64,000 nt of DNA from Selenomonadaceae bacterium (GCA_017476425.1 JAFUZV010000115.1:17349-81348); one strand, 5' to 3'; positions 1 to 39,809 are shown, counted from the stretch's first letter. Notes: a model not told the origin generated them from the sequence alone. Numbers and translations: made by a program.

Positions 1-1
1 T

Positions 2-1152: not shown

Positions 1153-1803
1153 ATGTTTGTTGCAGCAAGAATGACAAAACACCCGGTTACAGTTACATCT
1201 GAAGCGACGATCAGTGAGGCGGCAAAGTTAATGAAGAAAAATCATTTTCACAGAATGCTTGTTGTTGATAATTGTAAACTTGTCGGCTATTTTAGTGATC
1301 GCGATGTTATGCGAGTTGCACCTTCACCAGCTACGACTCTTTCACGTTATGAAATTCGATCTTTACTTGACAAAATGAAAGTTACTGAAATTATGCAAAA
1401 AAAAGTAGTTACAGTTAAAGAAGATGCAACCGTTGAAGAAGCCGCATTAATAATGTATAATAACAAAGTCGGCGGCTTGCCTGTTATCAGTGATGTTGGC
1501 GCAGTTGTCGGAATTATAACGGCGACTGATATTTTAAAAACGTTTGTTGATGTTATGGGCTTGCCTTCAGGAAAAACAAGGCTTACTTTAGAAGTTGAGG
1601 ATAAAATTGGAACTATTGCAGATATAACTAAAATTTTTGCTGATTATGGTATCAATTTAGACAGCGTGATAACTTGTAAACAGGATTCCGGCAAGTATGA
1701 ATTAGTTGTCAGACTTGATGATATAGATAAAAATTTTGATAATATTAAATCAGAACTCGAAAGCAAAGGCTATAAAGTTGTTCACGTTGTCAAAATTGGC
1801 TAG
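1153..1803 (+). CDS. CBS-pair plus ACT-like domain protein (AcuB-like)
   Basis: 216-aa ORF with GAGGTGAG SD 5 nt upstream. Two CBS repeats (HRMLVVDNCKLVGYFSDRDV; GGLPVISDVGAVVGIITATDIL) are followed by an ACT-like C-terminus (RLTLEVEDKIGTIADITKIFADYGINL). Confidence 0.75.
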   Translation: MFVAARMTKHPVTVTSEATISEAAKLMKKNHFHRMLVVDNCKLVGYFSDRDVMRVAPSPATTLSRYEIRSLLDKMKVTEIMQKKVVTVKEDATVEEAALIMYNNKVGGLPVISDVGAVVGIITATDILKTFVDVMGLPSGKTRLTLEVEDKIGTIADITKIFADYGINLDSVITCKQDSGKYELVVRLDDIDKNFDNIKSELESKGYKVVHVVKIG

Positions 1804-1830
1804 TATACCTTATAAATGTGAGTTTTTAAT

Positions 1831-3039: not shown

Positions 3040-3044
3040 AATTT

Positions 3045-3914: not shown

Positions 3915-3917
3915 CTT

Positions 3918-4940: not shown

Positions 4941-4944
4941 AAAT

Positions 4945-6036: not shown

Positions 6037-6038
6037 AC

Positions 6039-7136
6039 TTAGTTAATTAACCTCAAATTATTAAAATTACAATCACAAGCTGCCGGAACTCGTCCAATTT
6101 CTTTAATGATTTTTATGATCTCGTCTTCTTTTAATGCTGTCGGACTTGATGCGCCAGCTTCGTGCAAAATTGTTTCTTTGTGAATTGTGCCGTCAATGTC
6201 GTTTGCTCCAAAATTCAACGCAATTTGTGCAACAGGAACTGTCAACATTACCCAGTATGCTTTGATATTTTGAAAATTGTCCAACATTAGACGCGAAATT
6301 GCTATTGTTCTCAAATCGTCCCACATTGAAGTCTGTTTGATCGTCTTTCCAAGTTCAGTATTTTTAGGTAAGAATGGAAAACTTATAAAAGTTTGAAATC
6401 CTCCAGTTATATCTTGTAAATTTCGCAATTTTATCAAATGATCAACTCGTTCTTCTAAAGTTTCAATATGACCATAAAGCATACTTGCATTTGATTTAAT
6501 GCCTAATTCGTGAGCAATTCTCGAAGTCTCTAACCATTCTTCAGCAGTTGCCTTTTTAGGACAAAGTAAATTTCTTACACGATCCGAAAGAATTTCTGCG
6601 CCGCCGCCTGCGATCGCTTGTAAACCGGCGTTTTTAAGTTCAATCAACACATCTTTTAAAGGTTTACCTGAAATTTTTGCAAAATATGTAATTTCTACAG
6701 CTGTAAAACCTTTTATATATAAACTTGGAAAATGTTTATGAATTACAGTTAAAAAATCGACGTATTTTTTGAAATTCCACGTCGGATGCAAGCCGCTGAC
6801 TATATGCAATCCGGACATATTTGGGTCTTTCATTGCCTCTTCAATCGTATTAATCGCCTGTTCGATCGTCATTTCATATGCGCCTTTTGTTTCACGATCA
6901 CGACCGAACGCACAAAATTTACAAAGTGACGAACAAATATTTGTAAGATTGAGATGGCAATTAACATTGTAATAAACTATTTCACCACATTTTTTTTTGC
7001 GAACATAATCAGCAAGCGCACCAAGCCAGGCGAGATCATTACACGAAAATAATTTTATTCCGTCTTCACGACTCAACCGCTCATCATTCAAAATCTTTCG
7101 TTCAATTTCCGTAAAACTTCCGAACAAAAACATCAC
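6039..7136 (-). CDS. Radical SAM enzyme, CofH/MqnE family (aminofutalosine synthase-like), paralog A
   Basis: 365-aa ORF. HLNLTNICSSLCKFCAF cluster motif and LNFGANDIDGTIHKETILHEAG. First gene of the four-gene minus-strand operon (gaps of 2, 4 and 3 nt). Confidence 0.6.
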   Translation of the reverse strand: MMFLFGSFTEIERKILNDERLSREDGIKLFSCNDLAWLGALADYVRKKKCGEIVYYNVNCHLNLTNICSSLCKFCAFGRDRETKGAYEMTIEQAINTIEEAMKDPNMSGLHIVSGLHPTWNFKKYVDFLTVIHKHFPSLYIKGFTAVEITYFAKISGKPLKDVLIELKNAGLQAIAGGGAEILSDRVRNLLCPKKATAEEWLETSRIAHELGIKSNASMLYGHIETLEERVDHLIKLRNLQDITGGFQTFISFPFLPKNTELGKTIKQTSMWDDLRTIAISRLMLDNFQNIKAYWVMLTVPVAQIALNFGANDIDGTIHKETILHEAGASSPTALKEDEIIKIIKEIGRVPAACDCNFNNLRLIN

Positions 7137-7334
7137 CTACAATTTACATTTATAAATAATTAAAATTATATCACTTTTGAATTTCGTTTTGAAGTTTTTT
7201 AGCAACACATTTTAATAAATGAAAATTTATTTAATATCGATAAGCAAATTTCATTATCTTACTTAAAAATTTCCTTTTATTGTGATAAAATATGAAACGG
7301 AATTTTTTCCAAAATTTTTTCGAGGTGGTTTAAT

Positions 7335-8648
7335 TTGAATGTTTTAGAAAAAGTTTTTAAACTTAATGCAAAAGGTACAAGTGTTCGGACAGAGATAATT
7401 GCAGGTATTACAACCTTTATCGCTATGTCTTACATAGTTTTTGTAAATCCGAACATTTTGGCTGATGCAGGTATTCCGAAAGAAGCGGCGATCGCTTCAA
7501 CTATCTGGATCGCTGCGCTTGCGTCAATGGTTATGGGTGTCGTTGCGAATTATCCTGTTGCACTTGCTCCGGGTATGGGTTTAAATGCCTTCTTTGCTTA
7601 TTATGTCTGCGGAGTTTTAGGACTTCATTGGACTGTTGCACTCGGTGCAGTATTTTTCTCAGGCGTATTGTTTTTGATCTTAACGATCGGCGGCATTCGT
7701 CAAGCAATTATTAATTGTGTACCTAAAAATTTGAAATTTGCGATCGGTGTCGGAATAGGTTTATTCATTGCTTTTATCGGTCTCAAGGGTACAGGAATAA
7801 TAATTTCTGATCCTGCAACTTTTATAACACTCGGTCACCTTTCGCAGCCAACAACATTGCTTGCACTTTTCGGTCTCTTAATGACTGGCGGACTTATGGC
7901 ACTCAACATTCAAGGTGCAATTTTAATCGGAATAATTATCACAACGATTATTTCAATGTTTTTAGGTCTCTCTCCAACGCCTTCAAGTTTTAGCGATATT
8001 TTAAGTACTTCACTACCGAGTCTCGGTGAAACTTTTGGACAATTAGATATTGCCAGTGCTTGGTCTTATGGTATCGTTTCGATAATTTTCACTTTTACTG
8101 TTGTTGAGTTATTCGATAATATGGGCACTTTGATCGGTTTAACTCAGAAAGCAAATTTAGTCGACAAAGACGGCAAAATTGAAAATCTTGACAAAGCATT
8201 AACAACTGATGCAGTCGGTACGATCGCAAGTGCAATTTTCGGAACGTCAACGGTTACAAGTTACATTGAAAGCGCAGCAGGTATCGCCGCCGGTGGTAAG
8301 ACGGGTTTAACCGCTGTCACAACGGCTGTTATGTTTCTGATCACATTACTTTTTGCACCGCTGATCGGTTTAGTTCCTGCTTTTGCAACTTCACCGGCTT
8401 TGATCCTCGTCGGTGCAATGATGATGAACGGAATTAAACAAGTTGAATTTGAAGACTTTACTGACGGTTTTCCGGCGTTCTTGACAATTATAATGATGCC
8501 GATGACTTCTTCAATCGCTAATGGTTTTGCATTCGGTTTTGTCAGTTATGTATTTATGAAATGCGTCGGCAGAAAATTTTCTGAAATTCACCCGGTGATG
8601 TGGCTTGTCAGCATTGCATTTTTGATCAACCTCTTTATGCGTTCATAA
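7335..8648 (+). CDS. NCS2 family purine permease (adenine/guanine/hypoxanthine, AzgA/PbuG-like)
   Basis: 437-aa polytopic ORF with TTG start after GAGGTGG. N-terminus FKLNAKGTSVRTEIIAGITTFIAMSYIVFVNPNIL is characteristic of the AzgA-like NCS2 subfamily. Confidence 0.85.
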   Translation: MNVLEKVFKLNAKGTSVRTEIIAGITTFIAMSYIVFVNPNILADAGIPKEAAIASTIWIAALASMVMGVVANYPVALAPGMGLNAFFAYYVCGVLGLHWTVALGAVFFSGVLFLILTIGGIRQAIINCVPKNLKFAIGVGIGLFIAFIGLKGTGIIISDPATFITLGHLSQPTTLLALFGLLMTGGLMALNIQGAILIGIIITTIISMFLGLSPTPSSFSDILSTSLPSLGETFGQLDIASAWSYGIVSIIFTFTVVELFDNMGTLIGLTQKANLVDKDGKIENLDKALTTDAVGTIASAIFGTSTVTSYIESAAGIAAGGKTGLTAVTTAVMFLITLLFAPLIGLVPAFATSPALILVGAMMMNGIKQVEFEDFTDGFPAFLTIIMMPMTSSIANGFAFGFVSYVFMKCVGRKFSEIHPVMWLVSIAFLINLFMRS

Positions 8649-19023: not shown

Positions 19024-19057
19024 CTGTAACTGAAAAATTTTACAGGAAGTGAATTTT

Positions 19058-19945
19058 ATGGATTTTTTTCACCAGTTTATACAACAATTAATCAATGGCG
19101 TTTCACTCGGCAGCATTTACGCTTTGATCGCTCTTGGTTATACGATGATCTACGGAATAATCAAGCTGATCAATTTTGCACACGGTGACGTTTATATGTT
19201 CGGTGCTTACATTGGATTTTTTGCGATTTCAATGTTACACCTGCCGATCATTCCGGCGTTGTTGATCTCAATGGTCATAACGGCTTGTCTTGGAATGCTG
19301 ATCGAAAAAATTGCTTATAAACCATTGCGTCACGCTCCAAGAATTTCTTTATTGATCACGGCGATCGGCGTTTCATTCTTTCTTGAATATGTAACAATGT
19401 ATTTTGTAACTCCAACGCCGAGAACTTTTCCGAATGTCATTGAAAATATTTCATTCAATTTCGGCGGTTTCATTATCAACGGTCAACAACTTCTGATCTT
19501 AGGAATTACGATCGTTTTGATGGCGATTTTAACTTATATTGTCCAAAAAACGAAAGTCGGTAAAGCAATGAGAGCGGCATCATTTGATACTGAAACGGCA
19601 CAATTAATGGGTATAAATTCCGATCAGATCATTTCATTGACATTCTGCATAGGATCAGCACTTGCGGCAGCCGCCGGCGTTTTAGTCGGTGTCTATTACA
19701 ATACTATTGATCCGTTGATGGGTATAATGCCCGGCTTGAAAGCCTTTGTTGCAGCAGTCTTAGGCGGAATTGGAATTTTACCGGGTGCAGTCGTCGGTGG
19801 TATCATTTTAGGCGTAATTGAAGCACTTGTATCCGGTTTTCTCTCGTCAACGTTTAGAGATGCAGCGGCCTTTGCGATCTTGATCCTTGTACTTTTGATC
19901 AAGCCTTCCGGTCTCTTCGGTAAAAATACTAATGAAAAGGTTTAA
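19058..19945 (+). CDS. livH: Branched-chain amino acid ABC transporter permease LivH
   Basis: ATG at 19058 after AGGAAGTGA. QQLINGVSLGSIYALIALGYTMIYG is the LivH N-terminal signature. Confidence 0.85.
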   Translation: MDFFHQFIQQLINGVSLGSIYALIALGYTMIYGIIKLINFAHGDVYMFGAYIGFFAISMLHLPIIPALLISMVITACLGMLIEKIAYKPLRHAPRISLLITAIGVSFFLEYVTMYFVTPTPRTFPNVIENISFNFGGFIINGQQLLILGITIVLMAILTYIVQKTKVGKAMRAASFDTETAQLMGINSDQIISLTFCIGSALAAAAGVLVGVYYNTIDPLMGIMPGLKAFVAAVLGGIGILPGAVVGGIILGVIEALVSGFLSSTFRDAAAFAILILVLLIKPSGLFGKNTNEKV

Positions 19946-20780
19946 AATTAATTCGTTATTTGAAGATGATACAGAAGAAATTTTTAATAATTGTAAAACT
20001 AAAATAATTGAATTTGGCGAAACATTTTCAATAGACACTTGCATTGATAAAATCATTCACGGCGATTGTTTAGAAGTTATGAGAAAAATGCCCGATCATT
20101 GCATTGATATTATAATTACTTCACCGCCATATAATTTGTTTAATTCGACGGGTAACGGCTTGCATAGAAATACTAAAGTCGGCAAATGGAAAAATGCCGC
20201 GATCAAAAACGGTTATGCTGAATATGATGACAATATGCCTTATGATGAATATATTTCTTGGCAGCGTGAATGCGTCACTGAAATGTGCAGGATTATTACA
20301 GACGACGGTGCAATTTTCTACAACAATAAAAATCGTGTACAAGCCGGACTTTTACAAGACAGAGGCGAAATTTTAAAAGGTTTTCCACTTCGACAAATTA
20401 TCACTTGGAAACGTTCCGGCGCAATTAATTTCAATCCCGGTTATTTCTTACCAACGACTGAACAAATTTATTTGATCTGTAACAAAAATTTTAAACTTGC
20501 AAAAGGCGCAAATAAATATACCGACGTTTGGGAAATCAAGCAGAAAATGAAAAATCCACATCCTGCACCTTTTCCCGAAGAACTTACAGATCGGATCGTT
20601 TCAAGCACGACAGGAAAAATCATTCTTGATCCATTCGGCGGTTCAGGTACAACGGCGGTATCTTGCAAAAAGTTCGATAGAAATTTTATTTTGATCGAAA
20701 AATCAATGAGATACTGCGAACTTGCAAAGAATAGAATTGAAGGCAAGGAAGATTGGCGCGATATACAAGATGATTTATGA
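19932..20780 (+). CDS. Site-specific DNA methyltransferase, beta-class amino-MTase (SPPY motif IV; N4-C or N6-A)
   Basis: 282-aa ORF overlapping the livH end by 14 nt. GDCLEVMRKMPDHCIDIIITSPPYNL (motif IV) is N-terminal and ILDPFGGSGTTAV (motif I) is C-terminal, which is the beta-class order. No endonuclease-like neighbour. Confidence 0.8.
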   Translation: MKRFKINSLFEDDTEEIFNNCKTKIIEFGETFSIDTCIDKIIHGDCLEVMRKMPDHCIDIIITSPPYNLFNSTGNGLHRNTKVGKWKNAAIKNGYAEYDDNMPYDEYISWQRECVTEMCRIITDDGAIFYNNKNRVQAGLLQDRGEILKGFPLRQIITWKRSGAINFNPGYFLPTTEQIYLICNKNFKLAKGANKYTDVWEIKQKMKNPHPAPFPEELTDRIVSSTTGKIILDPFGGSGTTAVSCKKFDRNFILIEKSMRYCELAKNRIEGKEDWRDIQDDL

Positions 20781-20826
20781 ATTATTTTAGAAAATTAATT
20801 TAAAACAGATTGGAGGAATTTATTGG

Positions 20827-21774
20827 ATGAACTCAATCAGAAAACGAGATTTTATAATGCTGATCGTCGGACTGATTGTCTTTGCAATATTGCAAGGCTT
20901 GATGAGTGCCGGAGTGATCGGATCGTTTTGGCAGCTGAATTTAATTTTAATCGGAATAAATATCATAATGTCAGCAAGTCTGAATTTGATCAACGGTTAT
21001 ACAGGACAATTTTCACTTGGTCACGCAGGATTTATGGCAGTCGGTGCTTATGTTGGAGTTGTCTGCACGACGAATTTCGGAATGCCGTTGATCGTTGCAT
21101 TGATCGCAGGTGCAGCGGCGGCAGGTCTTTTGGGATTTATGATCGGTCTTCCGACTCTTAGACTTCGTGGCGATTATCTTGCGATCGCAACTTTAGGACT
21201 TGGTGAAATTATTCGTATCGTGATTATGAATATTGAATACGTTGGCGGCGCAGCAGGTTTTAAAGGCATTAAACATTTAACGGACTTCACTTGGGTATTT
21301 TTCATAATGCTTTTTACTCTTTTCTTCATTAAAAATTTTGTCAACTCAACACACGGACGTGCTTGCATTTCGATTCGTGAAAATGAGATCGCCGCTGAGG
21401 CTATGGGTATCAACACGACGAAATATAAAGTAATGGCGTTCACGATCGGCGCAGCTTTCGCAGGTATCGCCGGCGGACTTTTCGCTCATCAATTCTATTT
21501 GATCAGTCCGAATTCATTTACTTTTATGGCTTCGTTCAATTATTTGATTATGGTTGTTTTAGGCGGACTCGGATCGATAACAGGATCAATCGCCGGAGCA
21601 TTCGTCGTTACATTCATTTCAGCGGCACTTGCAGCTTGGCCTGAATTTAGAATGATCATTTATGCACTTGCATTGATCTTGTTGATGTTTTATCGTCCGC
21701 AAGGTCTTTTCGGTTATATGGAAATTACAAATTTAAAACCGATTCGTCAAGTGCTTGATAAAATCAGTCGTTGA
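20827..21774 (+). CDS. livM: Branched-chain amino acid ABC transporter permease LivM
   Basis: 315-aa polytopic ORF. NLINGYTGQFSLGHAGFMAVGAY and LRLRGDYLAIATLGLGEIIR are LivM signatures. Confidence 0.85.
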   Translation: MNSIRKRDFIMLIVGLIVFAILQGLMSAGVIGSFWQLNLILIGINIIMSASLNLINGYTGQFSLGHAGFMAVGAYVGVVCTTNFGMPLIVALIAGAAAAGLLGFMIGLPTLRLRGDYLAIATLGLGEIIRIVIMNIEYVGGAAGFKGIKHLTDFTWVFFIMLFTLFFIKNFVNSTHGRACISIRENEIAAEAMGINTTKYKVMAFTIGAAFAGIAGGLFAHQFYLISPNSFTFMASFNYLIMVVLGGLGSITGSIAGAFVVTFISAALAAWPEFRMIIYALALILLMFYRPQGLFGYMEITNLKPIRQVLDKISR

Positions 21775-21834
21775 TTTTAAATCGTTGATGATAATTATAA
21801 TAGCGATAAAATTTTTAAAGAAAGGATTTTTATA

Positions 21835-22707
21835 ATGAATGTTGATAAATTCTTAATTACACAATACTTGGGGGGGGGGGGGCTTGCATATGAACTTTTG
21901 ACGAGCCGCCGTCTTGAAAATGATAAATGCCTTGAGAAATATGGATTCAAAGTCTATTCACAAAATGATGAAGATGGAATTATTGAAGAAATTTTTAATC
22001 GCATTGGTACGACGAATAAAATTTTCGTTGAGTTCGGAGTTGAAAATGGACTTGAGAGCAACGGTCATTATCTTCTGCATAAAGGCTGGCGTGGATTCTG
22101 GATCGATGGCAGTGAAAAAAATATTCAAGAAATTGCATCAAGATTTTATCCTGCGATCTCAAATAAACAGCTTGTTTTTAAATGTGCCTTCATCACTAAA
22201 GACAATATCAACGATTTAATAAGTAGCGTTGTGAAAGGTGAAATTGATCTTTTAAGCATTGATGTTGACGGTAATGATTATTACATTTGGGAAACAATTA
22301 ACGTTGTCAATCCTAGAGCAGTTGTTATTGAATACAATGCAAAATTTCCGCCTAATCATGAATGGAAAATGGCTTACAACGAAAAACATCATTGGGACGG
22401 CTCCGATTGTTTCGGTGCATCTTTGAAGGCTTTAGAACTTCTTGGTCGAAAACTTGGTTATCAATTAGTTGGAACCAATTTAAATGGTGTAAATGCTTTC
22501 TTTGTTAGAAAAGAATTAGCAGGTGACAAATTCATTCAAGCCGCAACGGCTGAAGAATTATATAATCCATTCAGAACAAAAACTCATAAATTTACAAATG
22601 GGCATCCTCCAGCGTATTTTTTAGATCACCAACTTCCGAATTTAGGTTTGAATAATTATAATCCTGTTGAATATGAGAAAGCGAAGTCAGATTTAAATCA
22701 AAAATAA
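21835..22707 (+). CDS. FkbM-like putative SAM-dependent methyltransferase carrying a 13-G tract at codons 12-16
   Basis: 290-aa ORF. YSQNDEDGIIEEIF and LLSIDVDGNDYYIWE resemble FkbM-type methyltransferase-like proteins (weak recall). The G13 run at 21870-21882 encodes GGGG and is in frame in this sequence. Confidence 0.45.
   Translation: MNVDKFLITQYLGGGGLAYELLTSRRLENDKCLEKYGFKVYSQNDEDGIIEEIFNRIGTTNKIFVEFGVENGLESNGHYLLHKGWRGFWIDGSEKNIQEIASRFYPAISNKQLVFKCAFITKDNINDLISSVVKGEIDLLSIDVDGNDYYIWETINVVNPRAVVIEYNAKFPPNHEWKMAYNEKHHWDGSDCFGASLKALELLGRKLGYQLVGTNLNGVNAFFVRKELAGDKFIQAATAEELYNPFRTKTHKFTNGHPPAYFLDHQLPNLGLNNYNPVEYEKAKSDLNQK
21870..21882 (+). repeat. Homopolymeric G13 tract inside the 5' end of a CDS (candidate slipped-strand phase-variation switch)
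   Basis: Counted directly: G at 21870 plus GGGGGGGGGG at 21871-21880 plus GG at 21881-21882. It is the only long G/C homopolymer I saw in this AT-rich window. Confidence 0.9.
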
Positions 22708-22723
22708 TTTATGGTGAACTTAT

Positions 22724-23437
22724 ATGAAACAAAAAATAATTTTAGATATTCATACTCACACTTATGCAAGCGGTCACGCTTATGGAACGATTCGAGAAAT
22801 GGCTTATGCAGCGAGCATTAAAGGTTTAAAGGCGATCGGTTTCACGGAACACGCTCCGGGCATTCCTGGAACTTGTGATCCGTTTTACTTTTGCAATTTA
22901 AAAGTTATTCCACGTGAAATTTTCGGAGTAAAAATTTTTCACGGCAGCGAGATTAACGTATTAAATGACGGAACTTTATCACTTGATCAAGAATGGATCG
23001 ATCGTCTTGATTATGGAATTGCCGGGATTCACGTACAATGTTATCACGATGAAGGCATTGCAAAGAATACTCAAAATTTAATTTCTTGTATGAAACACCC
23101 GAAAATTTATTTTGTTTCACATCCGGACGACGATCATACACCGCTTGATTACAATCATTTAGTGCTTGCAGCGAAAGAATATCACGTTGCACTTGAAATT
23201 AATAGCAGTTCACTTTTCAAAAAAGATCGGCGACTGAATTGTTACAAGAATTATGAAACAATGTTAAATCTCTGTATGAATTTGCAAGTTCCGATCTTCG
23301 TTGGCTCTGATGCTCATGATCCTTCAGGCGTTGGTGATTTTAAACTTGCTGAAGAATTTTTAACTGAAATGAATTTTGATGAAGATTTGATCATTAACAA
23401 TGATTTTGACAAGTTCGTTAAATTTATAAATTTTTGA
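22724..23437 (+). CDS. PHP-domain phosphatase (YcdX-like)
   Basis: 237-aa ORF. N-terminal LDIHTHTYASGHAYGTIREM and later GSDAHDP match the PHP metal-binding His/Asp pattern. Confidence 0.75.
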   Translation: MKQKIILDIHTHTYASGHAYGTIREMAYAASIKGLKAIGFTEHAPGIPGTCDPFYFCNLKVIPREIFGVKIFHGSEINVLNDGTLSLDQEWIDRLDYGIAGIHVQCYHDEGIAKNTQNLISCMKHPKIYFVSHPDDDHTPLDYNHLVLAAKEYHVALEINSSSLFKKDRRLNCYKNYETMLNLCMNLQVPIFVGSDAHDPSGVGDFKLAEEFLTEMNFDEDLIINNDFDKFVKFINF

Positions 23438-23446
23438 GGTGATCAA

Positions 23447-24220
23447 ATGGCGGAACTTTTAAAAGCTGAAAATGTTTCTGAAGTCTTCGGCGGCTTGAAA
23501 GCTGTTGACGACTTCAATATTTATATCAATCAAGGCGAATTGATTGGACTTATCGGACCGAATGGCGCAGGTAAAACGACGGCATTTAATCTGATAACCG
23601 GCGTTTATCAACCTACGACCGGCGAAATTACTTTTGACGGCAAAAGCCTTGTAGGTTTAAAGCCTTATCAAATTACTCAACGCGGTATTGCAAGGACTTT
23701 TCAAAATATCCGTTTGTTTTCTGAATTGAGTGTTTTAGATAATGTCAAGATTGCTTATCATTGCCACGTTAAATACGGTTTACTTGAATCCGTTTTGAGA
23801 CTCGGAAGATATTTTTCAGAAGAAGATGAGATCGAAGAGGAAAGTTTAAAGTTATTAAAAATTTTTAAACTTGATGAGCATGCAAATGAAGCCGCTAAAA
23901 ATTTGCCTTACGGTGCGCAGAGACGATTAGAGATCGCAAGAGCATTAGCGGCAAAACCAAAATTATTATTGCTTGATGAACCGGCGGCAGGTATGAATCC
24001 ACAAGAAACGAATGAATTAATGGAAATGATCCGCTGGATCAGAAAACAATTCGGCTTGACAGTACTTTTGATCGAACACGATATGAGTTTAGTAATGGGT
24101 ATCTGTGAAAGAATTTATGTTTTGGAATATGGGATTATAATTGCAAGCGGTACGCCGGAAGAAATTCAAAATAATCCTGAAGTTATTCGAGCTTATCTCG
24201 GTGCTGAAACGATCAATTAA
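23447..24220 (+). CDS. livG: Branched-chain amino acid ABC transporter ATP-binding protein LivG
   Basis: 257-aa ORF. FGGLKAVDDF, Walker A GPNGAGKTT, the LivG-specific insert (YHCHVKYGLLESVLRLGRY), LSGG-like YGAQRRLEIARAL and Walker B LLLLDEPAAG. Confidence 0.85.
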   Translation: MAELLKAENVSEVFGGLKAVDDFNIYINQGELIGLIGPNGAGKTTAFNLITGVYQPTTGEITFDGKSLVGLKPYQITQRGIARTFQNIRLFSELSVLDNVKIAYHCHVKYGLLESVLRLGRYFSEEDEIEEESLKLLKIFKLDEHANEAAKNLPYGAQRRLEIARALAAKPKLLLLDEPAAGMNPQETNELMEMIRWIRKQFGLTVLLIEHDMSLVMGICERIYVLEYGIIIASGTPEEIQNNPEVIRAYLGAETIN

Positions 24221-24239
24221 TATCAAAAATTTATTATTG

Positions 24240-24268
24240 AATCTGCTGACGATAGCGGATTTTTTTAT
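24240..24268 (+). terminator. Rho-independent terminator after livG
   Basis: AATCTGCTG (24240-24248), loop ACGA, TAGCGGATT (24253-24261) with two G:U pairs, then TTTTTTTATTT. Confidence 0.6.
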
Positions 24269-24300: not shown

Positions 24301-24326
24301 TTGACAATCGTTTTTTTTTTTATAAT
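24301..24326 (+). promoter_or_regulatory. Promoter candidate for the RiPP-like cassette with a T11 tract in a short (14-nt) spacer
   Basis: Perfect TTGACA (24301-24306) and perfect TATAAT (24321-24326). The spacer ATCG+T10 is only 14 nt, and the T run spans 24311-24321. Confidence 0.4.
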
Positions 24327-24384
24327 GTTTTAAACTTTTTTAGCGTTTATTAATTGTTTATAAAATGAAGGTGGTTGTTGTATT

Positions 24385-24567
24385 ATGAAGAAAAAATATT
24401 CAGTGCCGAAAGTGATCAATATGCCGCAGGAAATTCAAAGTGGTGTTCCTGGAGCACTTTTAGGTGCAGCATATATGATTGGTCGTGCAGTTACAGCAGC
24501 AGTAAAAGGACACATTGATTTAAAAGCCGGTATGAACGAACCAAAAACTTTGCAGAGTAGGAAATAA
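24385..24567 (+). CDS. Candidate RiPP precursor peptide (60 aa, no Cys/Trp/Phe)
   Basis: GAAGGTGG SD 10 nt upstream. The stop lies 3 nt before the PqqD-like gene. Sequence: MKKKYSVPKVINMPQEIQSGVPGALLGAAYMIGRAVTAAVKGHIDLKAGMNEPKTLQSRK. Confidence 0.5.
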   Translation: MKKKYSVPKVINMPQEIQSGVPGALLGAAYMIGRAVTAAVKGHIDLKAGMNEPKTLQSRK

Positions 24568-24570
24568 ATT

Positions 24571-24882
24571 ATGTATAGAGATTTAGAAAGTTATTCAATC
24601 GTGAAAAATATTTTGCTTGAATCAGTGCCTAAAATTGAAGCGTTGAAATTTCGCACGGAAGGTGAAATTTTAATTGTCGTCAGTCGTGAAAAAAAACTTT
24701 TCTTTTTGAATGAAGTTGCAAAAGATTTTTTACTTCTTTGCAATGGTCAACGTACACTTGCAAAAATTATTGATGCGTTTATTGAAATTTATGACGTTGA
24801 AAAAGATCAGTTGACTAACGATTTGATCGATACAATTCAAGATTTGCAGTACAAGAGAATTTTGCGTGTGGAGGCGGCGTAA
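24571..24882 (+). CDS. PqqD-family peptide chaperone (RiPP recognition element)
   Basis: 103-aa ORF. FFLNEVAKDFLLLCNGQRTLAKIIDAFIEIYDVEKDQLTNDLIDTIQDLQYKRIL follows the PqqD/RRE consensus layout. Confidence 0.65.
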   Translation: MYRDLESYSIVKNILLESVPKIEALKFRTEGEILIVVSREKKLFFLNEVAKDFLLLCNGQRTLAKIIDAFIEIYDVEKDQLTNDLIDTIQDLQYKRILRVEAA

Positions 24883-24884
24883 AT

Positions 24885-25922
24885 ATGGACGAGATTGAAA
24901 AGCGTTTGAAACGTGAAGCGGCAAGTACTGCAAAAATTGACGAAGACCGAAACCGTTTGATAGCTGAAGGTAGTTATCCTGAAAAATTCAGTTTTCCGAT
25001 CGCTATGCAGTTTGAGGTTACTTCTAAATGTAATTTGCGTTGCAAGCACTGCTATAATCGTTCGGGCAATTCCAATGTTGCTGATACTGTGACCGGCGAT
25101 GATTGGATCAATTTTTCAAAAAAGTTAGTTGAAAAAGGCGGCTTATTTGAAACGACATTTTCCGGCGGTGAGCCATTACTTTTAGGCGATAAACTTTTTG
25201 AAATTATGGACGTACTTTATAAAGATGGTACAATTTTTAATCTCATATCGAATGGATATCTTTTCGACAAAAAGATTCTCGATAAATTAAAAAAATATCG
25301 TTTCTACTGGATTCAAATTTCACTTGATAGTTGTAATTCAAAAAGTCACGATGAATTTAGAGGCGTTAAAGGTAGTTGGGAACGTGCAACAAAGGCAGCT
25401 TATAGAATTGCATTGTCAGGAATACCGCTTAGAATTGCCTCAACTGTCACTCCGTCAGAGTTGGAAAATTTGGAGAAAATGGTGCAAACAGCGATCAATC
25501 TTGGAGCGTCATATTTGGTTATTGGTGAAGTTATGCCTAGTGGTCGTGCTTTTGACAATGAAGAAATTTTTTTGTCACGGGAGCAACTCAATCAATTTTA
25601 TTTAACTACTGACGAAATCATTAAACGTTATAAAAATCAGTTGACAATTTTAGTTAGCTCGACAACTCGCACACAGTTGAATTATTCTTCTTCTGAAAAA
25701 CTTGATGGTGCAGTTGTTCGACCGAATGGTGATGTTCGTTTAGATTGCACTTGTCCATTCGTCATAGGTAATATTTTGCGTGACGATGTAGAGGAAATTT
25801 GGGCGAAGTATTTTAATTGCTGGCAGAATCCACTTGTTAAGAAATTTATTGAATCTTGTGATCCTATAAGTGGAAAAAATTCTTTTGCTGAAAATTATAA
25901 CGGCGAGGATATTTATTTATAA
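24885..25922 (+). CDS. Radical SAM enzyme with reduced SPASM/twitch-like C-terminal domain (peptide maturase candidate)
   Basis: 345-aa ORF with GGAGGCGG SD. CNLRCKHCYN (Cx3Cx2C) and GGEPLL. The C-terminal part has NGDVRLDCTCPF plus only three further Cys (SLDSC, FNCW, ESCD). No Cx2Cx5Cx3C block is visible. Confidence 0.8.
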   Translation: MDEIEKRLKREAASTAKIDEDRNRLIAEGSYPEKFSFPIAMQFEVTSKCNLRCKHCYNRSGNSNVADTVTGDDWINFSKKLVEKGGLFETTFSGGEPLLLGDKLFEIMDVLYKDGTIFNLISNGYLFDKKILDKLKKYRFYWIQISLDSCNSKSHDEFRGVKGSWERATKAAYRIALSGIPLRIASTVTPSELENLEKMVQTAINLGASYLVIGEVMPSGRAFDNEEIFLSREQLNQFYLTTDEIIKRYKNQLTILVSSTTRTQLNYSSSEKLDGAVVRPNGDVRLDCTCPFVIGNILRDDVEEIWAKYFNCWQNPLVKKFIESCDPISGKNSFAENYNGEDIYL

Positions 25923-25931
25923 TATTTTTTT

Positions 25932-25964
25932 AAACGACGATAAAAAATATCGGCGTTTTTTTTT
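25932..25964 (+). terminator. Rho-independent terminator after the radical SAM gene
   Basis: AAACGACGATA / TATCGGCGTTT stem (one mismatch) with loop AAAAA, followed by a T-run to 25964. Confidence 0.65.
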
Positions 25965-26080
25965 GCAAAAAAAGTTTATAAAAAATTTAAATTTCGTTAA
26001 AAGAATTATAATAATATTTTTGTAAAATGTCTTATAATTGTAAAATGAATCCTGTACTTGTTAGAATGGTTGTGGTTTCT

Positions 26081-28290: not shown

Positions 28291-28390
28291 ATGAAAAATT
28301 TATAAAAAGTTTAAAGTTTATTAAGAAGTTGGTTAAAAGAATGAATTATAATTGTAAAAAAAGAAAAAATTTTGTTGGTGGTGAGTGAAA

Positions 28391-29014
28391 ATGTCAATAA
28401 ATTTGAATGACGGACAAGAAATTTATCTTCAAAAAAATGATGAAGGCTTGTTCGAGAAAATTAGGATCAAAATCGGCTGGCAAATGCCTTACAAGTCGTG
28501 TAACGGGCTTTGGTTTTCGGATTTCTTTGAACATAATTACATTGAATGTCATGCTTATATGTTGATGTACAGAGAAGAAATGACGGTAGATCACGAGGAT
28601 ATTATCAGTTATTGCAATTCAGAACACTATTCACAATCAGTGCGTTATCTCGGTAAATGCTTGGAAGACAGCGGATCAGTTTCAGAAATTATGTTGATCG
28701 ATCCTGAAAAAATTCCTGAGCAATATTCAATGATCGTTTTTATGGTTGATGTTTCAAAAGTGAATGGTCAAGGTCATCATTTTGGAATGATCAGAAATGC
28801 TTATATGAATATTTCTGACGAGGAAAATACTCAAAAAATTTGTCATTATAATTTGTCCGGCAGATATGACGGAATGACTTCAATGTTAATTGGTGCGTTG
28901 TGTCGTTGTAAAAACGGCTGGGAATTTTTGGCGATCGGTGAAGGCAGCACTGAAAATATCGTTGATAATTTGATTAAGCCGGATTTATATGAAGATAGTG
29001 CTATTGCGATCTAA
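28391..29014 (+). CDS. Divergent TerD-family stress protein
   Basis: ATG at 28391 after GGTGGTGAG. INLNDGQEIYL.., IRIKIGWQ, LIDPEKIPEQYSMIVFMV, FGMIRNAYMNISDEE and NGWEFLAIGEG follow the TerD/YceD layout. The usual acidic Ca-binding GDN..GDGDDE segment is not conserved. Confidence 0.65.
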   Translation: MSINLNDGQEIYLQKNDEGLFEKIRIKIGWQMPYKSCNGLWFSDFFEHNYIECHAYMLMYREEMTVDHEDIISYCNSEHYSQSVRYLGKCLEDSGSVSEIMLIDPEKIPEQYSMIVFMVDVSKVNGQGHHFGMIRNAYMNISDEENTQKICHYNLSGRYDGMTSMLIGALCRCKNGWEFLAIGEGSTENIVDNLIKPDLYEDSAIAI

Positions 29015-38748: not shown

Positions 38749-39540
38749 ATGCCGTTACCTTTTATTTTAGGCGCAGCAGCAGTTTTCGGAGCAGTAAAAA
38801 CTATTGATTCGTTGGATACAATGGACAGAGCAAAATCAATTAACAGAGAAGCTCAAGAAATTGCTGACAATGCAAAAAGTAATTACGAAGCCGCTAAAAG
38901 AGATTGTCAAAACACTCTTGAATGTTTGGGAAAAAACAAAGTTTACATTAAACAGACAAGTATTAAATATTTTACTCATCATTTTTTGCAGATTCATAAT
39001 TTACCGTTTGAATATAATGTTAAAATAAATGAATTAAGAGAAGAAGCCATTAGTGACGATAAGTTGATGAGAAACGTTGAAGACTTTGAATTTTTGGATT
39101 TTGCAGCGATTGGAGTAGCCGGTTATGCACTTGGAGCATTAAATCCAATTACTATTGCATTTAGTGGTTTAATTTTGAGGGATAAAGCAGATACGGCACT
39201 TTCTAATGCAAAATCAAATCGTGATAAGGCTCGTATGTATGAAGAACAATGTAGAAGTGCTTGTTCCTTTCTCAATGCAGTTTCGGCTCGTGGTTATCAA
39301 ATTAATGAGATTCTTGATGAATTGAATGAAAAATTTATACCAACGGTTACAGATGTAAAAGATATTATTTCAACTTACGGCACTGATTTCAGACAGTATA
39401 GTTACAATGTACAAAGAAGAGTGATGAATGCATTTAGTGTATCAGATGTTATAAGACAAATTTTAAATACTCCAATGTTGACTGAGAATGGAAAAAATAT
39501 TAATCCTCAAATCGTTGGCTTGATTGAAAAGCACGGTTAA
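38749..39540 (+). CDS. Hypothetical protein with N-terminal and central hydrophobic segments and coiled-coil-like regions
   Basis: 263-aa ORF starting 4 nt after the previous stop. Hydrophobic segments are MPLPFILGAAAVFGAV and FAAIGVAGYALGALNPITIAFSGLIL. No family recognised. Confidence 0.4.
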   Translation: MPLPFILGAAAVFGAVKTIDSLDTMDRAKSINREAQEIADNAKSNYEAAKRDCQNTLECLGKNKVYIKQTSIKYFTHHFLQIHNLPFEYNVKINELREEAISDDKLMRNVEDFEFLDFAAIGVAGYALGALNPITIAFSGLILRDKADTALSNAKSNRDKARMYEEQCRSACSFLNAVSARGYQINEILDELNEKFIPTVTDVKDIISTYGTDFRQYSYNVQRRVMNAFSVSDVIRQILNTPMLTENGKNINPQIVGLIEKHG

Positions 39541-39809
39541 TGAGTAAGTTTGAGTGCGATAAATGTGGTTTATGTTGTCAACAATTATCGAAGTCTGAAT
39601 TATATTCTTCATTAGATCGTGGCGATGGAGTTTGCAGACATTTCGATGAAACAACTAAACTTTGCAAAATTTATGCTAACCGTCCGATCATTTGTAATGT
39701 GGATGAAATTTATGATCGATTTTTGAATAAAAAGATCAGTCGAAAAGCATTTCACGATTTAAATTACGCCGTTTGTCGGCAATTAAAAAAAGTAGGCAAC
39801 TCATTTTAG
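39540..39809 (+). CDS. YkgJ-type CxxCxxCC cysteine-cluster (putative Zn/Fe-binding) protein
   Basis: 89-aa ORF. Its ATG overlaps the previous TAA by 1 nt (TAATG). FECDKCGLCCQ plus downstream Cys residues match the UPF0153/YkgJ pattern. Confidence 0.65.
   Translation: MSKFECDKCGLCCQQLSKSELYSSLDRGDGVCRHFDETTKLCKIYANRPIICNVDEIYDRFLNKKISRKAFHDLNYAVCRQLKKVGNSF

What the first reader, a model, noticed from the sequence alone, without database searches (positions are those of the whole stretch)
24301..25964. Precursor / PqqD-like / radical-SAM cassette whose 60-aa precursor has no Cys, Trp or Phe
Seen in sequence:
- A terminator-bounded unit (terminators at 24240-24268 and 25932-25964) holds three tightly coupled genes with 3-nt and 2-nt gaps.
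- The first is a 60-aa peptide (MKKKYSVPKVINMPQEIQSGVPGALLGAAYMIGRAVTAAVKGHIDLKAGMNEPKTLQSRK).
- The second is a 103-aa PqqD-like RRE protein.
- The third is a 345-aa radical SAM enzyme (CNLRCKHC). Its C-terminal domain keeps the NGDVRLDC element but carries only five extra Cys and no visible Cx2Cx5Cx3C SPASM block.

Established knowledge:
- Sactipeptide and ranthipeptide thioethers need Cys, and streptide-type links need Trp.
- Cys-free rSAM substrates exist (YydG/PoyD epimerases, mycofactocin MftABC with the same A-B-C gene order, Tyr/Arg/Lys carbon-carbon or ether crosslinks).
- I do not recognise this peptide as belonging to any of them.

Inference:
- This is either a new crosslink or epimerisation class acting on a Gly/Ala-rich amphipathic core (two Tyr, one His, one Arg in the middle region), or a non-exported cofactor-like product.
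- The second option is raised because no protease or ABC exporter is adjacent.
- A two-component system follows immediately downstream.
Basis: partly seen in the sequence, partly recalled or inferred. Interest (0 to 1): 0.8.

Follow-up and report, generated by a model that had tools for sequence, protein, structure and literature searches.

The report
Uncharacterised radical-SAM peptide maturation cassette
A small operon encodes a 60-residue peptide, a peptide-binding chaperone and a radical-SAM enzyme from a rare, unnamed family found in gut and rumen anaerobes, so it probably makes a modified membrane-active peptide by chemistry not yet described.

Summary
Window 24385-25922 (+) carries three tightly coupled genes: a 60-aa peptide, a 103-aa PqqD-type recognition protein and a 345-aa radical-SAM enzyme.

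The cassette recurs in about 90 metagenomic and genomic loci from Negativicutes, Lentisphaerota, Synergistota and Spirochaetota. A homologous short ORF sits directly upstream of PqqD in 46 of the 53 non-redundant loci where rSAM and PqqD are both seen.
- Y-x-x-P leader motif: 92/92 precursors.
- Gly/Ala/Val-rich hydrophobic core, usually with a basic tail.
- [R/K]-A-[V/L] anchor: 86/92.
- dN/dS 0.09-0.26 in well-diverged pairs.

No curated family, name or paper covers the peptide or the enzyme. No protease, exporter or other neighbour is conserved. The only recurrent extra gene is a small CxxCxxCC (YkgJ-like) protein.

The enzyme folds like the sactisynthase SkfB. Outside CxxxCxxC it keeps one invariant Cys (C288), and most relatives have lost the other auxiliary-cluster cysteines.

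No Cys or aromatic residue is conserved in the precursors, so thioether and aromatic crosslinks cannot be the common chemistry. My best guess (about 0.4) is leader-guided C-alpha epimerisation with C288 as hydrogen donor. This is untested.

Verdict: a real, unassigned RiPP-like family, best classed as a new variant of a known kind.

The parts
24239..24262 (+). Intrinsic terminator closing the upstream livG-like gene. It isolates the cassette as its own transcription unit.
   Evidence: 10-bp stem followed by a T-run. (-9.9 kcal/mol, z = -2.8).
24301..24326 (+). Promoter-like TTGACA / TATAAT pair with a 14-nt spacer. Its function is uncertain.
   Evidence: Read directly. The consensus scan did not report it because of the short spacer.
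24368..24374 (+). Ribosome-binding site AAGGTGG, 10 nt upstream of the peptide start codon.
   Evidence: sequence.
24385..24567 (+). Precursor peptide gene (60 aa; NCBI MBR1729471.1, annotated hypothetical). Layout: leader MKKKYSVPKVINM..., then a probable core from about V21 (VPGALLGAAYMIGRAVTAAVKGHIDLKAGMNEPKTLQSRK).
   Evidence: The family has 92 unique precursors. dN/dS is 0.09-0.26.
24397..24408 (+). Codons for Y5-S-V-P8, the invariant Y-x-x-P leader motif. This is the presumed contact for the PqqD-type RRE.
   Evidence: Y..P is present in 92/92 precursors. The leader gives weak hits to tryglysin and lasso precursor models over residues 1-12. That it binds the RRE is inferred.
24484..24492 (+). 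Codons for R34-A35-V36, the nearly invariant [R/K]-A-[V/L] anchor of the core.
   Evidence: R72/K14, A69, V56 among 86 anchored sequences.
24571..24882 (+). Discrete PqqD-family RiPP recognition element (103 aa).
   Evidence: Pfam PF05402, E = 1.6e-11. It is below every NCBIfam equivalog cut-off. It is adjacent to the precursor in essentially all loci.
24885..25922 (+). Radical-SAM maturase (345 aa; MBR1729473.1). It has a SPASM/twitch-type fold without a cis RRE. The N-terminus is a long helix (residues 3-27).
25029..25052 (+). C49-x3-C53-x2-C56, the radical-SAM [4Fe-4S] motif.
   Evidence: Invariant in 80/80 homologues.
25746..25748 (+). C288 (in RLDC), the only invariant Cys outside the SAM-cluster motif. 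It is a candidate H-atom donor or a residual cluster ligand.
   Evidence: 80/80. It sits just after the beta-hairpin at 275-285 of the degenerate SPASM region. The assigned role is inferred.
25932..25966 (+). Terminator-like hairpin plus T9 run that ends the cassette. Moderate strength.
   Evidence: -7.7 kcal/mol, z = -1.2. The scan did not call it.
39540..39809 (+). Distant CxxCxxCC (YkgJ-like, PF03692) gene. It is a possible trans partner of the rSAM, but it is coupled here to two unrelated unknown genes, so the link is uncertain.
   Evidence: 39.5% identical (E = 1.7e-15) to the cassette-linked copy in L081. Pfam hit. ORF context.

Best explanation
This is a self-contained RiPP-type maturation module of an undescribed family.

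**Proposed mechanism**
1. The 60-aa peptide is the substrate. (Inferred.)
2. Its N-terminal leader (MKKKYSVPKV, with the invariant Y-x-x-P) is bound by the separate PqqD-type recognition protein. (Inferred.)
3. PqqD presents the Gly/Ala/Val-rich core to the radical-SAM enzyme. (Inferred.)
4. The enzyme cleaves SAM to a 5'-deoxyadenosyl radical and abstracts a hydrogen from an aliphatic position of the core, near the conserved [R/K]-A-[V/L] anchor. (Inferred.)

**Why epimerisation is the leading guess**
- No Cys or aromatic residue is conserved in the substrates.
- The enzyme keeps a single invariant extra cysteine (C288).
- Most relatives have lost the other auxiliary-cluster ligands.
- The most likely outcome is therefore a redox-neutral C-alpha epimerisation (L to D), with C288 returning the hydrogen.

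**Proposed product and partner**
- The product would be a hydrophobic membrane-active peptide, basic-tailed in most members. (Inferred.)
- The small CxxCxxCC protein that accompanies most relatives would be a metal-cluster or electron-transfer partner acting in trans. (Inferred.)

**Shown versus inferred**
- Shown: gene content, conservation, co-occurrence, fold, and the cysteine pattern.
- Inferred: substrate identity, RRE-leader contact, the reaction, the role of C288, the role of the CxxCxxCC protein, and the activity of the product.

**Rough confidence**
- RiPP-type maturation of this peptide: about 0.85.
- Chemistry independent of Cys and aromatics: about 0.75.
- Epimerisation specifically: about 0.4.
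For: **Architecture**
- Peptide, PqqD and rSAM are separated by 3-nt and 2-nt gaps.

**Co-occurrence**
- About 90 loci hold the family rSAM.
- In 46 of the 53 non-redundant loci where rSAM and PqqD are both seen, a leader-bearing short ORF ends -40 to +120 nt from the PqqD start.
- Two gene orders occur: pep-PqqD-rSAM and (YkgJ)-rSAM-pep-PqqD.
- Some loci carry 2-3 tandem precursors.

**Precursor family**
- Y..P in 92/92; [R/K]-A-[V/L] anchor in 86/92.
- Longest uncharged stretch: median 17 residues (range 6-53), 81% G/A/V/L/I/M.
- Median charge of the region after residue 18 is +3, range -8 to +6.
- dN/dS 0.09-0.26 at dS of about 1.

**Spread across phyla**
- Selenomonadaceae, Phascolarctobacterium, Megamonas, Sporomusa, Lentisphaerota, Synergistales and Termitinemataceae.

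**Enzyme**
- AF2 model pLDDT 95.5.
- Nearest solved folds are RiPP maturases: SkfB (TM 0.70) and SuiB (0.64-0.66).
- Nearest by sequence are SkfB and PqqE in the PDB, and GeoRSP, NirJ2, AlbA, AhbD and PqqE in NCBIfam, all far below cut-off.

**Cysteine census over 80 homologues**
- CxxxCxxC and C288 are invariant.
- C290, C312 and C325 are kept only in the window's subfamily (23-26 of 26). In the other subfamily they are kept in 4, 24 and 3 of 54.

**Aromatics**
- At least P0163 and P0175 have no aromatic residue in the core.

**Literature parallel (PMC8326336)**
- Proteusin epimerases carry only the SAM cluster plus one strictly conserved Cys, which acts as hydrogen donor.
- Epimerases and sactisynthases differ only in whether the C-alpha radical meets a Cys of the enzyme or of the peptide.
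- Epimerised peptides are membrane-active.

**CxxCxxCC partner**
- Adjacent in 16/22 loci of the Cys-poor subfamily against 1/7 of the Cys-retaining one.
- The RLDCxC motif is present in 0/38 against 7/8.
Against: - No chemistry was observed. Epimerisation rests on elimination and analogy.
- The enzyme is only remotely similar to the known epimerase YydG/EpeE: 34 bits, core only. YydG is not among the top 50 Foldseek matches.
- C288 occupies the position of a SPASM Aux-I ligand. In the window's subfamily it could simply be one of four ligands (C288, C290, C312, C325) of a retained auxiliary cluster. That would permit oxidative chemistry.
- The recurrent CxxCxxCC protein could equally serve as an electron acceptor for an oxidative reaction.
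- Known epimerases are reported to act independently of the leader. Here a dedicated RRE is conserved.
- The whole peptide is conserved in modules, including a C-terminal P-K-T-L-Q-type motif. This is unusual for a leader/core RiPP.
Confidence: 0.4

Rival explanations
1. The enzyme installs an oxidative carbon-carbon (or carbon-oxygen) crosslink involving the conserved Arg/Lys. In this window the candidate pair is Tyr30-Arg34, with Y-x-x-x-R spacing. This would resemble the Arg-Tyr link of RrrB, the Trp-Arg link of WprB or the Glu-Tyr link of PqqE. The electron would leave through a residual auxiliary cluster (C288/C290/C312/C325) or through the CxxCxxCC protein.
For: - Position -4 from the Arg is Tyr, Trp, His or Phe in 65 of 110 sequences counted. 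A further 23 have an aromatic at -8, on the same helical face.
- The window's subfamily conserves four C-terminal Cys.
- Arg-Tyr and Glu-Tyr crosslinks by related enzymes are documented (PMC9389541; PMC11851443).
- The gene order matches pqqA-D-E.
Against: - Leu replaces the aromatic at -4 in 25/86 sequences.
- At least two precursors (P0163, P0175) have no aromatic residue anywhere in the core. Several others have only a distant His.
- The larger subfamily lacks any auxiliary-cluster Cys set.
- The enzyme scores far below the WgkB, PqqE and MftC cut-offs.
Confidence: 0.2
2. The enzyme performs another aromatic-independent modification of an aliphatic residue or of the backbone. Possibilities include desaturation, hydroxylation, cyclopropanation-like C-C formation between aliphatic side chains, or backbone rearrangement or cleavage.
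For: - The same elimination argument applies: no conserved Cys or aromatic.
- The nearest folds include cluster-less or cluster-poor enzymes with diverse chemistry, BlsE and DesII.
- rSAM-SPASM enzymes acting on Val methyl groups are known (PMC10878394, listed).
Against: - There is no specific positive evidence.
- Most of these reactions are oxidative and normally use full SPASM domains, which are lacking here.
Confidence: 0.2
3. The peptide is the precursor of a non-exported, cofactor-like small molecule, in the manner of PQQ or mycofactocin.
For: - The gene order peptide-PqqD-rSAM equals pqqA-D-E and mftA-B-C.
- No exporter or protease is conserved nearby.
Against: - No partner enzymes are conserved: no PqqB/C/F-like or MftD/E/F-like genes, and no dependent dehydrogenases.
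- Core length varies widely (uncharged stretch 6-53 residues) and is hydrophobic.
- Several loci carry 2-3 divergent tandem precursors.
- No pair of reactive residues is invariant.
- The enzyme scores 86.9 against a 265 cut-off for MftC, and 99.4 against 381 for PqqE.
Confidence: 0.06
4. The short ORF is a small membrane protein that merely travels with the enzyme, and the rSAM acts on a non-peptide substrate. One homologue, for example, is annotated as heme b synthase.
For: - One relative (GMO32901.1) is labelled heme b synthase.
- AhbD and NirJ models give about 100-110 bits.
- The hydrophobic peptides look like membrane helices.
Against: - The AhbD and NirJ scores are about five-fold below their cut-offs of 500.
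- A PqqD-type peptide chaperone is always present and immediately follows the short ORF.
- The invariant Y-x-x-P leader is typical of RRE-bound leaders.
- No haem-pathway genes are conserved nearby.
Confidence: 0.05

Closest known systems
Epipeptide (YydF/YydG = EpeX/EpeE) and proteusin (PoyA/PoyD) radical-SAM epimerase systems
   Same: - The substrates are hydrophobic peptides without functional Cys.
- A radical-SAM enzyme abstracts the C-alpha hydrogen.
- A single critical enzyme Cys acts as hydrogen donor.
- Proteusin epimerases have no auxiliary cluster.
- The products are membrane-active (PMC8326336).
- Here there is one invariant extra Cys, a degenerate auxiliary site, and Gly/Ala/Val-rich cores.
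   Different: - Sequence similarity to YydG is only remote: 34 bits.
- A discrete PqqD RRE is conserved here, whereas known epimerases act independently of the leader.
- There is no nitrile-hydratase-like leader.
- There is no yydHIJ-type protease or ABC exporter.
- The chemistry is untested.
Sactisynthases SkfB and AlbA (twitch/SPASM RiPP maturases)
   Same: - SkfB is the closest solved structure (TM 0.70) and the closest PDB sequence (111 bits).
- The AlbA model scores 107 bits.
- Recognition is leader-guided.
   Different: - The RRE is a separate protein, not an N-terminal domain.
- The substrates have no conserved Cys, so no thioether is possible.
- The auxiliary-cluster Cys set is reduced to one invariant Cys.
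- Scores are far below the cut-offs: 850 for AlbA, 300 for SkfB.
PQQ (PqqA/D/E) and mycofactocin (MftA/B/C)
   Same: - The three-gene order is the same: peptide, discrete PqqD-family chaperone, rSAM.
- The PqqD domain is shared.
- The substrates are Cys-free.
   Different: - There are no downstream tailoring enzymes.
- The core is long, variable and hydrophobic.
- Scores are below the PqqE, MftC and PqqD equivalog cut-offs.
- There is no full SPASM domain.
Tryglysin (WgkA/B/C) and other streptococcal RaS-RiPPs
   Same: - A discrete PqqD-like RRE (WgkC) works with an rSAM.
- The leader start MKKxYxxP resembles the tryglysin precursor model: E = 0.025 over residues 1-11.
- The clusters are small.
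   Different: - There is no W-G-K motif.
- WgkB scores 73.6 bits against a 650 cut-off, and WgkC 22 against 110.
- There is no exporter and no Rgg/SHP regulator.
- The hosts are diderm anaerobes.
GeoRSP system (TIGR04302/TIGR04303; function unknown)
   Same: - It gives the best NCBIfam hit for the rSAM (119.5 bits).
- Its PqqD model also hits.
- This suggests a similar split of functions over small proteins.
   Different: - Scores are well below the cut-offs of 400 and 100.
- The CxxCxxCC protein matches no NCBIfam model.
- GeoRSP is itself uncharacterised.

Membership tests
RiPP-type precursor / RRE / radical-SAM maturase module (generic) | A short precursor gene adjacent to and co-oriented with the maturase and RRE genes | tested here: met
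   Window gaps are 3 nt and 2 nt. The arrangement recurs in about 90 loci.
RiPP-type precursor / RRE / radical-SAM maturase module (generic) | A PqqD-like RiPP recognition element | tested here: met
   PF05402, E = 1.6e-11, 44.8 bits against a gathering score of 23.4.
RiPP-type precursor / RRE / radical-SAM maturase module (generic) | Radical-SAM CxxxCxxC core | tested here: met
   PF04055, 79.7 bits. C49/C53/C56 are invariant in 80/80.
RiPP-type precursor / RRE / radical-SAM maturase module (generic) | The peptide is actually modified by the enzyme | not testable with these tools
   Needs co-expression and mass spectrometry.
SPASM-domain rSAM enzymes | C-terminal seven-Cys motif (CX9-15GX4C ... 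CX2CX5CX3C ... C) binding two auxiliary clusters | tested here: not met
   The Pfam SPASM hit is partial, 19.2 bits against 21.5. Only C288 is invariant, and there is no CX2CX5CX3C block.
Sactipeptide / ranthipeptide | Conserved Cys in the core as thioether donor | tested here: not met
   The window peptide has no Cys. Cys after the leader occurs in only 12/92 precursors and at no conserved position.
Streptide-, darobactin- and triceptide-type aromatic crosslinked RiPPs | A conserved aromatic residue (Trp, Tyr, Phe or His) in the crosslink motif | tested here: not met
   No aromatic column is conserved. P0163 and P0175 have no aromatic residue in the core.
Mycofactocin (MftABC) | Precursor ending in ...C-G-V-Y, and an MftC equivalog score | tested here: not met
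   The peptide ends in ...TLQSRK. TIGR03962 scores 86.9 bits against a cut-off of 265.
PQQ (PqqADE) | PqqA E-x-x-x-Y motif, PqqE and PqqD equivalog scores, and pqqB/C genes | tested here: not met
   PqqE scores 99.4 against 381, and PqqD 31 against 46. No pqqB/C-like neighbours are conserved.
Radical-SAM peptide epimerases (PoyD type / YydG type) | A strictly conserved enzyme Cys that serves as hydrogen donor | tested here: inconclusive
   One invariant non-cluster-motif Cys (C288, 80/80) fits the pattern described in PMC8326336. Its role is untested, and it could instead be a cluster ligand.
Radical-SAM peptide epimerases (PoyD type / YydG type) | Sequence homology to PoyD or YydG | tested here: not met
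   YydG (8ai1-8ai6) scores only 34 bits over the rSAM core. It is absent from the top 50 structural matches.
Radical-SAM peptide epimerases (PoyD type / YydG type) | D-amino acids in the product | not testable with these tools
   Needs D2O labelling, Marfey analysis or NMR.
Heme b synthase AhbD / NirJ (non-RiPP rSAM) | Equivalog score and a tetrapyrrole-pathway context | tested here: not met
   AhbD scores 101.6 against 500, and NirJ2 110.2 against 500. No haem genes are conserved nearby.
Anti-phage defence system (PADLOC catalogue) | A match to a catalogued defence protein family | tested here: not met
   The only hits are generic rSAM-core hits to pVip models. The peptide, PqqD and the CxxCxxCC protein have none.

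The most novel reading that the evidence does not exclude
The cassette defines a new RiPP class built on a sactisynthase-derived radical-SAM enzyme that has lost its auxiliary clusters.
- The enzyme uses its one remaining Cys (C288) to epimerise residues in a ribosomal Gly/Ala/Val-rich peptide.
- The product would be a gramicidin- or polytheonamide-like D/L membrane channel, made by common gut Negativicutes (Phascolarctobacterium, Megamonas).
- A YkgJ-type CxxCxxCC protein would supply the missing redox site in trans.
- With no exporter or protease, the module would be mobile and self-sufficient. It could act on the producer's own membrane, as a stress or abortive-infection effector. One locus does sit inside a Gabija/TIR/Schlafen defence island.
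Probability: 0.15. Interest if true: 0.85.

Novelty: new variant of a known kind. Interest (0 to 1): 0.6.

Why it matters
**New enzymology and a new peptide scaffold**
- If the peptide is modified as proposed, this is an undescribed branch of radical-SAM peptide chemistry.
- The substrates offer neither Cys nor a conserved aromatic residue.
- The enzyme shows a SPASM/twitch domain in the act of losing its clusters.

**A hypothesis about a poorly understood protein family**
- The inverse relation between retained enzyme cysteines and an adjacent CxxCxxCC protein gives a testable idea.
- The idea is that an auxiliary redox site can be supplied in trans by the poorly understood PF03692 family.

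**Accessible and relevant hosts**
- The family occurs in abundant, cultivable human-gut and rumen anaerobes: Phascolarctobacterium succinatutens (WP_021720652.1, seen on 67 contigs) and Megamonas funiformis (WP_320769636.1).
- The product could therefore matter for gut microbial competition or membrane physiology.

**Tractable in the laboratory**
- The module has only three or four genes, so it suits heterologous reconstitution.

Tried and rejected
**Known classes tested and not met**
- Sacti-/ranthipeptide, streptide/triceptide-type, mycofactocin, PQQ, AhbD/NirJ and catalogued defence systems. Each failed a defining feature.

**Searches that found nothing**
- Six literature searches found nothing on this family: YkgJ/PqqD/rSAM; Phascolarctobacterium; Negativicutes; CxxCxxCC with radical SAM; RRE-Finder with novel RiPP; six core-motif strings.
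- The RaS-RiPP human-microbiome review does not mention these hosts.
- A PDB sequence search with the C-terminal domain alone gave only spurious matches to the antibody framework LVQPGGSLRLSCAA.
- Rfam found nothing around the cassette.
- A viral-contig scan found no copy.

**Neighbour analysis**
- Neighbour clustering, plus Pfam and PADLOC on the 130 nearest neighbours, found no conserved extra gene: no exporter, protease or immunity candidate.
- The top families reached 4/130. There was only a scatter of mobile and defence genes.
- The downstream histidine kinase and response regulator were rejected as part of the module.

**Glycyl-radical idea, considered and dropped**
- The subfamily-B core (A/G)-G-Y-A-(A/V) resembles the RVSGYAV site of pyruvate formate-lyase.
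- The Gly before Tyr is present in only 27/86 sequences (Ala in 38), there is no R-V before it, and the peptides are too small to shelter a stable radical.

**Technical limits**
- I could not measure the distances from C288 to the active site or to C290/C312/C325, because model coordinates are not exposed.


Full report
**1. Observation**

- Peptide: 24385-24567, 60 aa, with no Cys, Trp or Phe.
- PqqD-like protein: 24571-24882, 103 aa.
- Radical-SAM protein: 24885-25922, 345 aa.
- The gaps are 3 nt and 2 nt.

A strong Shine-Dalgarno sequence (AAGGTGG, 24368-24374) precedes the peptide.

Family assignments:
- Pfam confirms PqqD (E = 1.6e-11) and Radical_SAM (E = 3.7e-22).
- The SPASM model gives only a partial, sub-threshold hit: 19.2 bits against 21.5, over residues 275-308.

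Transcription signals:
- The upstream terminator (24239-24262) is solid.
- The downstream hairpin plus T9 run (25932-25966) is plausible but modest.
- The TTGACA/TATAAT pair at 24301-24326 has a 14-nt spacer, so its promoter status is uncertain.

The five extra Cys are C150, C288, C290, C312 and C325.

**2. Is the short ORF a real, conserved gene?**

Yes.

How the loci were gathered:
- The rSAM has hundreds of homologues. Its exact copy is MBR1729473.1, from a Selenomonadaceae MAG.
- I collected about 90 loci holding family members from genome and metagenome collections and from exact-protein look-ups.

What they show:
- In 46 of the 53 non-redundant loci where rSAM and PqqD are both seen, a short ORF with the leader motif ends -40 to +120 nt from the PqqD start.
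- Profile searches recover 54 peptide clusters at 90% identity. They recover only 29 clusters at 50% identity among 1.84 billion representatives. Every named copy is called hypothetical, and none has a Pfam domain.
- I compiled 92 unique precursors.

Shared features of the precursors:
- A leader M-K-K-x-Y-x-x-P-x-[VI], with Y..P in 92/92.
- A hydrophobic-Pro element (VPGAL / IPAA).
- A Gly/Ala/Val-rich uncharged stretch: median 17 residues, range 6-53, 81% G/A/V/L/I/M.
- An anchor [R/K]-A-[V/L] in 86/92.
- A C-terminal tail that is basic in most. The median charge of the region after residue 18 is +3, range -8 to +6.

Selection on the ORF:
- Pairs with dS of about 0.9-1.9 have dN/dS 0.09-0.26.
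- Closely related pairs (dS below 0.4) give noisier ratios of 0.2-1.4.
- Some loci carry two or three tandem divergent precursors, which is typical of RiPP clusters.

**3. The module and its surroundings**

Two gene orders exist.
- Type A, as in the window: peptide, PqqD, rSAM. The rSAM is at least about 52% identical to the window's.
- Type B: rSAM, peptide, PqqD. The rSAM is 43-50% identical.

The fourth gene:
- A fourth small gene recurs. It encodes an 85-110-aa CxxCxxCC protein (PF03692, YkgJ-like). It lies just before or after the set.
- The window has no adjacent copy.
- A 39.5%-identical one lies 13.6 kb downstream, at 39540-39809. It is coupled there to two unknown genes.

Other neighbours:
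- Beyond these four genes nothing is conserved.
- Clustering of neighbours gives at most 5 of 60 unique loci for any family.
- Pfam on the 130 nearest neighbours peaks at 4/130, for generic ABC ATPases.
- There is no conserved protease, exporter or immunity gene.
- Homologues of the window's histidine kinase and response regulator appear near only 2 of 60 loci, so they are not part of the module.

Genomic setting:
- Neighbours include a scatter of integrases, HTH/WYL regulators and defence genes.
- In one locus (L085) the cassette lies between a Gabija-like pair and TIR/Schlafen genes. There an SNF2 helicase is inserted between PqqD and rSAM.
- This points to variable genomic islands, but it is anecdotal.
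- In the window the cassette sits among branched-chain amino-acid ABC transporter (liv-type) genes that are interrupted by several unrelated genes.
- All hosts identified are diderm anaerobes from gut, rumen or termite habitats. That they are diderm is my own taxonomic knowledge.

**4. The enzyme**

No NCBIfam equivalog is reached. The table gives score against cut-off.

| NCBIfam model | Score (bits) | Cut-off (bits) |
|---|---|---|
| GeoRSP_rSAM | 119.5 | 400 |
| NirJ2 | 110 | 500 |
| AlbA | 107 | 850 |
| AhbD | 102 | 500 |
| PqqE | 99 | 381 |
| SkfB | 90 | 300 |
| MftC | 87 | 265 |
| WgkB | 74 | 650 |

Structure:
- The AlphaFold model is confident: pLDDT 95.5, built on 80 sequences.
- It is closest to SkfB (TM 0.70), then SuiB, BlsE, DesII, CteB and anSME.
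- This is a SPASM/twitch-type maturase fold without a cis RRE. A single long N-terminal helix (residues 3-27) takes its place.
- By sequence the PDB match (SkfB, PqqE) covers only the core, residues 38-264.

Cysteine census over 80 homologues:
- CxxxCxxC and C288 are invariant.
- C290, C312 and C325 are kept in the window's subfamily: 23, 24 and 26 of 26.
- In the other subfamily they are kept in only 4, 24 and 3 of 54.
- The family as a whole therefore cannot bind a canonical auxiliary cluster. The window's own enzyme might retain one four-Cys site.

Relation to the CxxCxxCC gene:
- It is adjacent in 16/22 type-B loci against 1/7 type-A loci.
- The RLDCxC motif is present in 0/38 type-B enzymes against 7/8 type-A enzymes.
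- This inverse relation suggests, by inference only, that the small Cys-rich protein replaces the lost redox site in trans.

**5. What chemistry?**

Ruled out as the common reaction:
- Thioethers. There is no conserved substrate Cys.
- Aromatic crosslinks. Position -4 from the Arg is Tyr in only 34/86, Leu in 25 and Trp in 9. At least two precursors have no aromatic residue in the core at all.

What remains:
- What remains is chemistry on aliphatic residues, on the backbone, or on the conserved Arg/Lys.

Why I favour epimerisation:
- The literature (PMC8326336) describes radical-SAM epimerases and sactisynthases as divergent solutions.
- Both abstract the C-alpha hydrogen. The radical is then quenched either by a Cys of the peptide (giving a thioether) or by a Cys of the enzyme (giving epimerisation).
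- Proteusin epimerases carry only the SAM cluster plus one strictly conserved Cys.
- The present family fits this picture. It has a sactisynthase-like fold, substrates without Cys, one invariant extra Cys at the former Aux-I ligand position, and decaying auxiliary ligands.
- The Gly/Ala/Val-rich hydrophobic cores also recall polytheonamide and gramicidin-type D/L channel peptides. This comparison is from my own knowledge.
- I therefore take C-alpha epimerisation as the single most likely reaction, at about 0.4.

Why this stays uncertain:
- It is an argument from elimination and analogy.
- Similarity to YydG is minimal.
- Known epimerases do not need the leader, whereas a dedicated RRE is conserved here.
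- C288 may merely be a cluster ligand in this subfamily.

Other options:
- A Tyr30-Arg34 crosslink of the RrrB/PqqE type is possible for this particular peptide, but it cannot be the family's common reaction.
- A cofactor role is unlikely. Core length is variable, multiple precursors occur, and no partner enzymes are conserved.

**6. Comparison with known systems and novelty**

- In organisation it works like PqqADE, MftABC and WgkABC: peptide, discrete PqqD chaperone, rSAM.
- In fold it resembles SkfB.
- In probable chemistry it resembles epipeptides and proteusins.
- It is a member of none of these. Each membership test that could be run failed on a defining feature.
- Neither curated databases (NCBIfam June 2026, Pfam 2025, PADLOC) nor the searchable literature describe it.
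- I class it as a new variant of a known kind: an rSAM-RiPP module.
- It has three unusual traits: cluster-poor SPASM remnants, a recurrent CxxCxxCC partner, and no export or processing genes.

**7. Verdict**

- Interest is about 0.6. This is a concrete, tractable lead to new radical-SAM peptide chemistry in common gut anaerobes, but genome mining regularly produces leads of this general type.

Noticed in passing
window 39540-39809 (+): An 89-aa CxxCxxCC (PF03692, YkgJ/YcgN-like) gene. It is 39.5% identical to the copy that directly follows the rSAM in a Lentisphaerota locus (L081). Here it overlaps the stop codon of an unknown 263-aa gene and follows another unknown 297-aa gene. It may be the trans partner of the cassette or may serve another operon.
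   Followed up: partly
L085 / L086, about 1-7800: The cassette sits in a defence island: AAA_21/OLD-TOPRIM plus a UvrD helicase (GajB hit) upstream, and TIR_2 and Schlafen-AlbA_2 proteins downstream. A 486-aa SNF2-type helicase is inserted between PqqD and rSAM, with overlapping reading frames.
   Followed up: partly
L167 4044-4846; L169 4075-4740; L159 / L162: Several loci carry multiple precursors. There are three tandem divergent copies in a Termitinemataceae contig, all ending in an L-P-x-L-D-x-V-type tail. In a Megamonas-type locus two copies flank PqqD. Two further loci each have two tandem 57-aa copies.
   Followed up: partly
window 19049-24220: The branched-chain amino-acid ABC transporter genes (two BPD_transp_2 permeases and a LivG-like ATPase) are interrupted. 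The intervening genes are an N6/N4 DNA methylase gene (19932-20780, overlapping the end of the first permease gene), an unknown 290-aa gene and a PHP-domain gene. The region looks like a patchwork of insertions, and the cassette follows directly.
   Followed up: no
window 28385-29014 (+): A TerD-domain stress protein gene lies immediately after the two-component system.
   Followed up: no
Precursor cores of subfamily B (for example L156, L158, L003): The motif (A/G)-G-Y-A-(A/V) resembles the glycyl-radical site R-V-S-G-Y-A-V of pyruvate formate-lyase. The Gly is present in only 27/86 precursors and the R-V is absent, so I judge the resemblance coincidental.
   Followed up: yes
L001 / L137 / L139 / L158 (Phascolarctobacterium), about 2.2-6.6 kb downstream of the rSAM start: In Phascolarctobacterium loci the cassette is followed on the same strand by several genes. 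From the sequences (my reading, not tested against Pfam) they look like an ATP-grasp-like 409-aa protein, a 220-aa protein, a carbamoyltransferase-like 537-aa protein and a glycosyltransferase-like 314-aa protein. This is specific to that lineage and could be extra tailoring or an unrelated operon.
   Followed up: no
GMO32901.1 (P0105; L167 3001-4047): A family member is annotated in GenBank as heme b synthase. The AhbD model scores the window's family member only 101.6 bits against a cut-off of 500, so this label is probably an over-annotation.
   Followed up: partly
rSAM C-terminal motif, window residues about 275-292: A profile of the C-terminal domain matches the antibody heavy-chain framework 1 (LVQPGGSLRLSCAA) in the PDB, through the family motif IIRPNGDVRLDC. 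This is a chance similarity and could mislead automated searches.
   Followed up: yes
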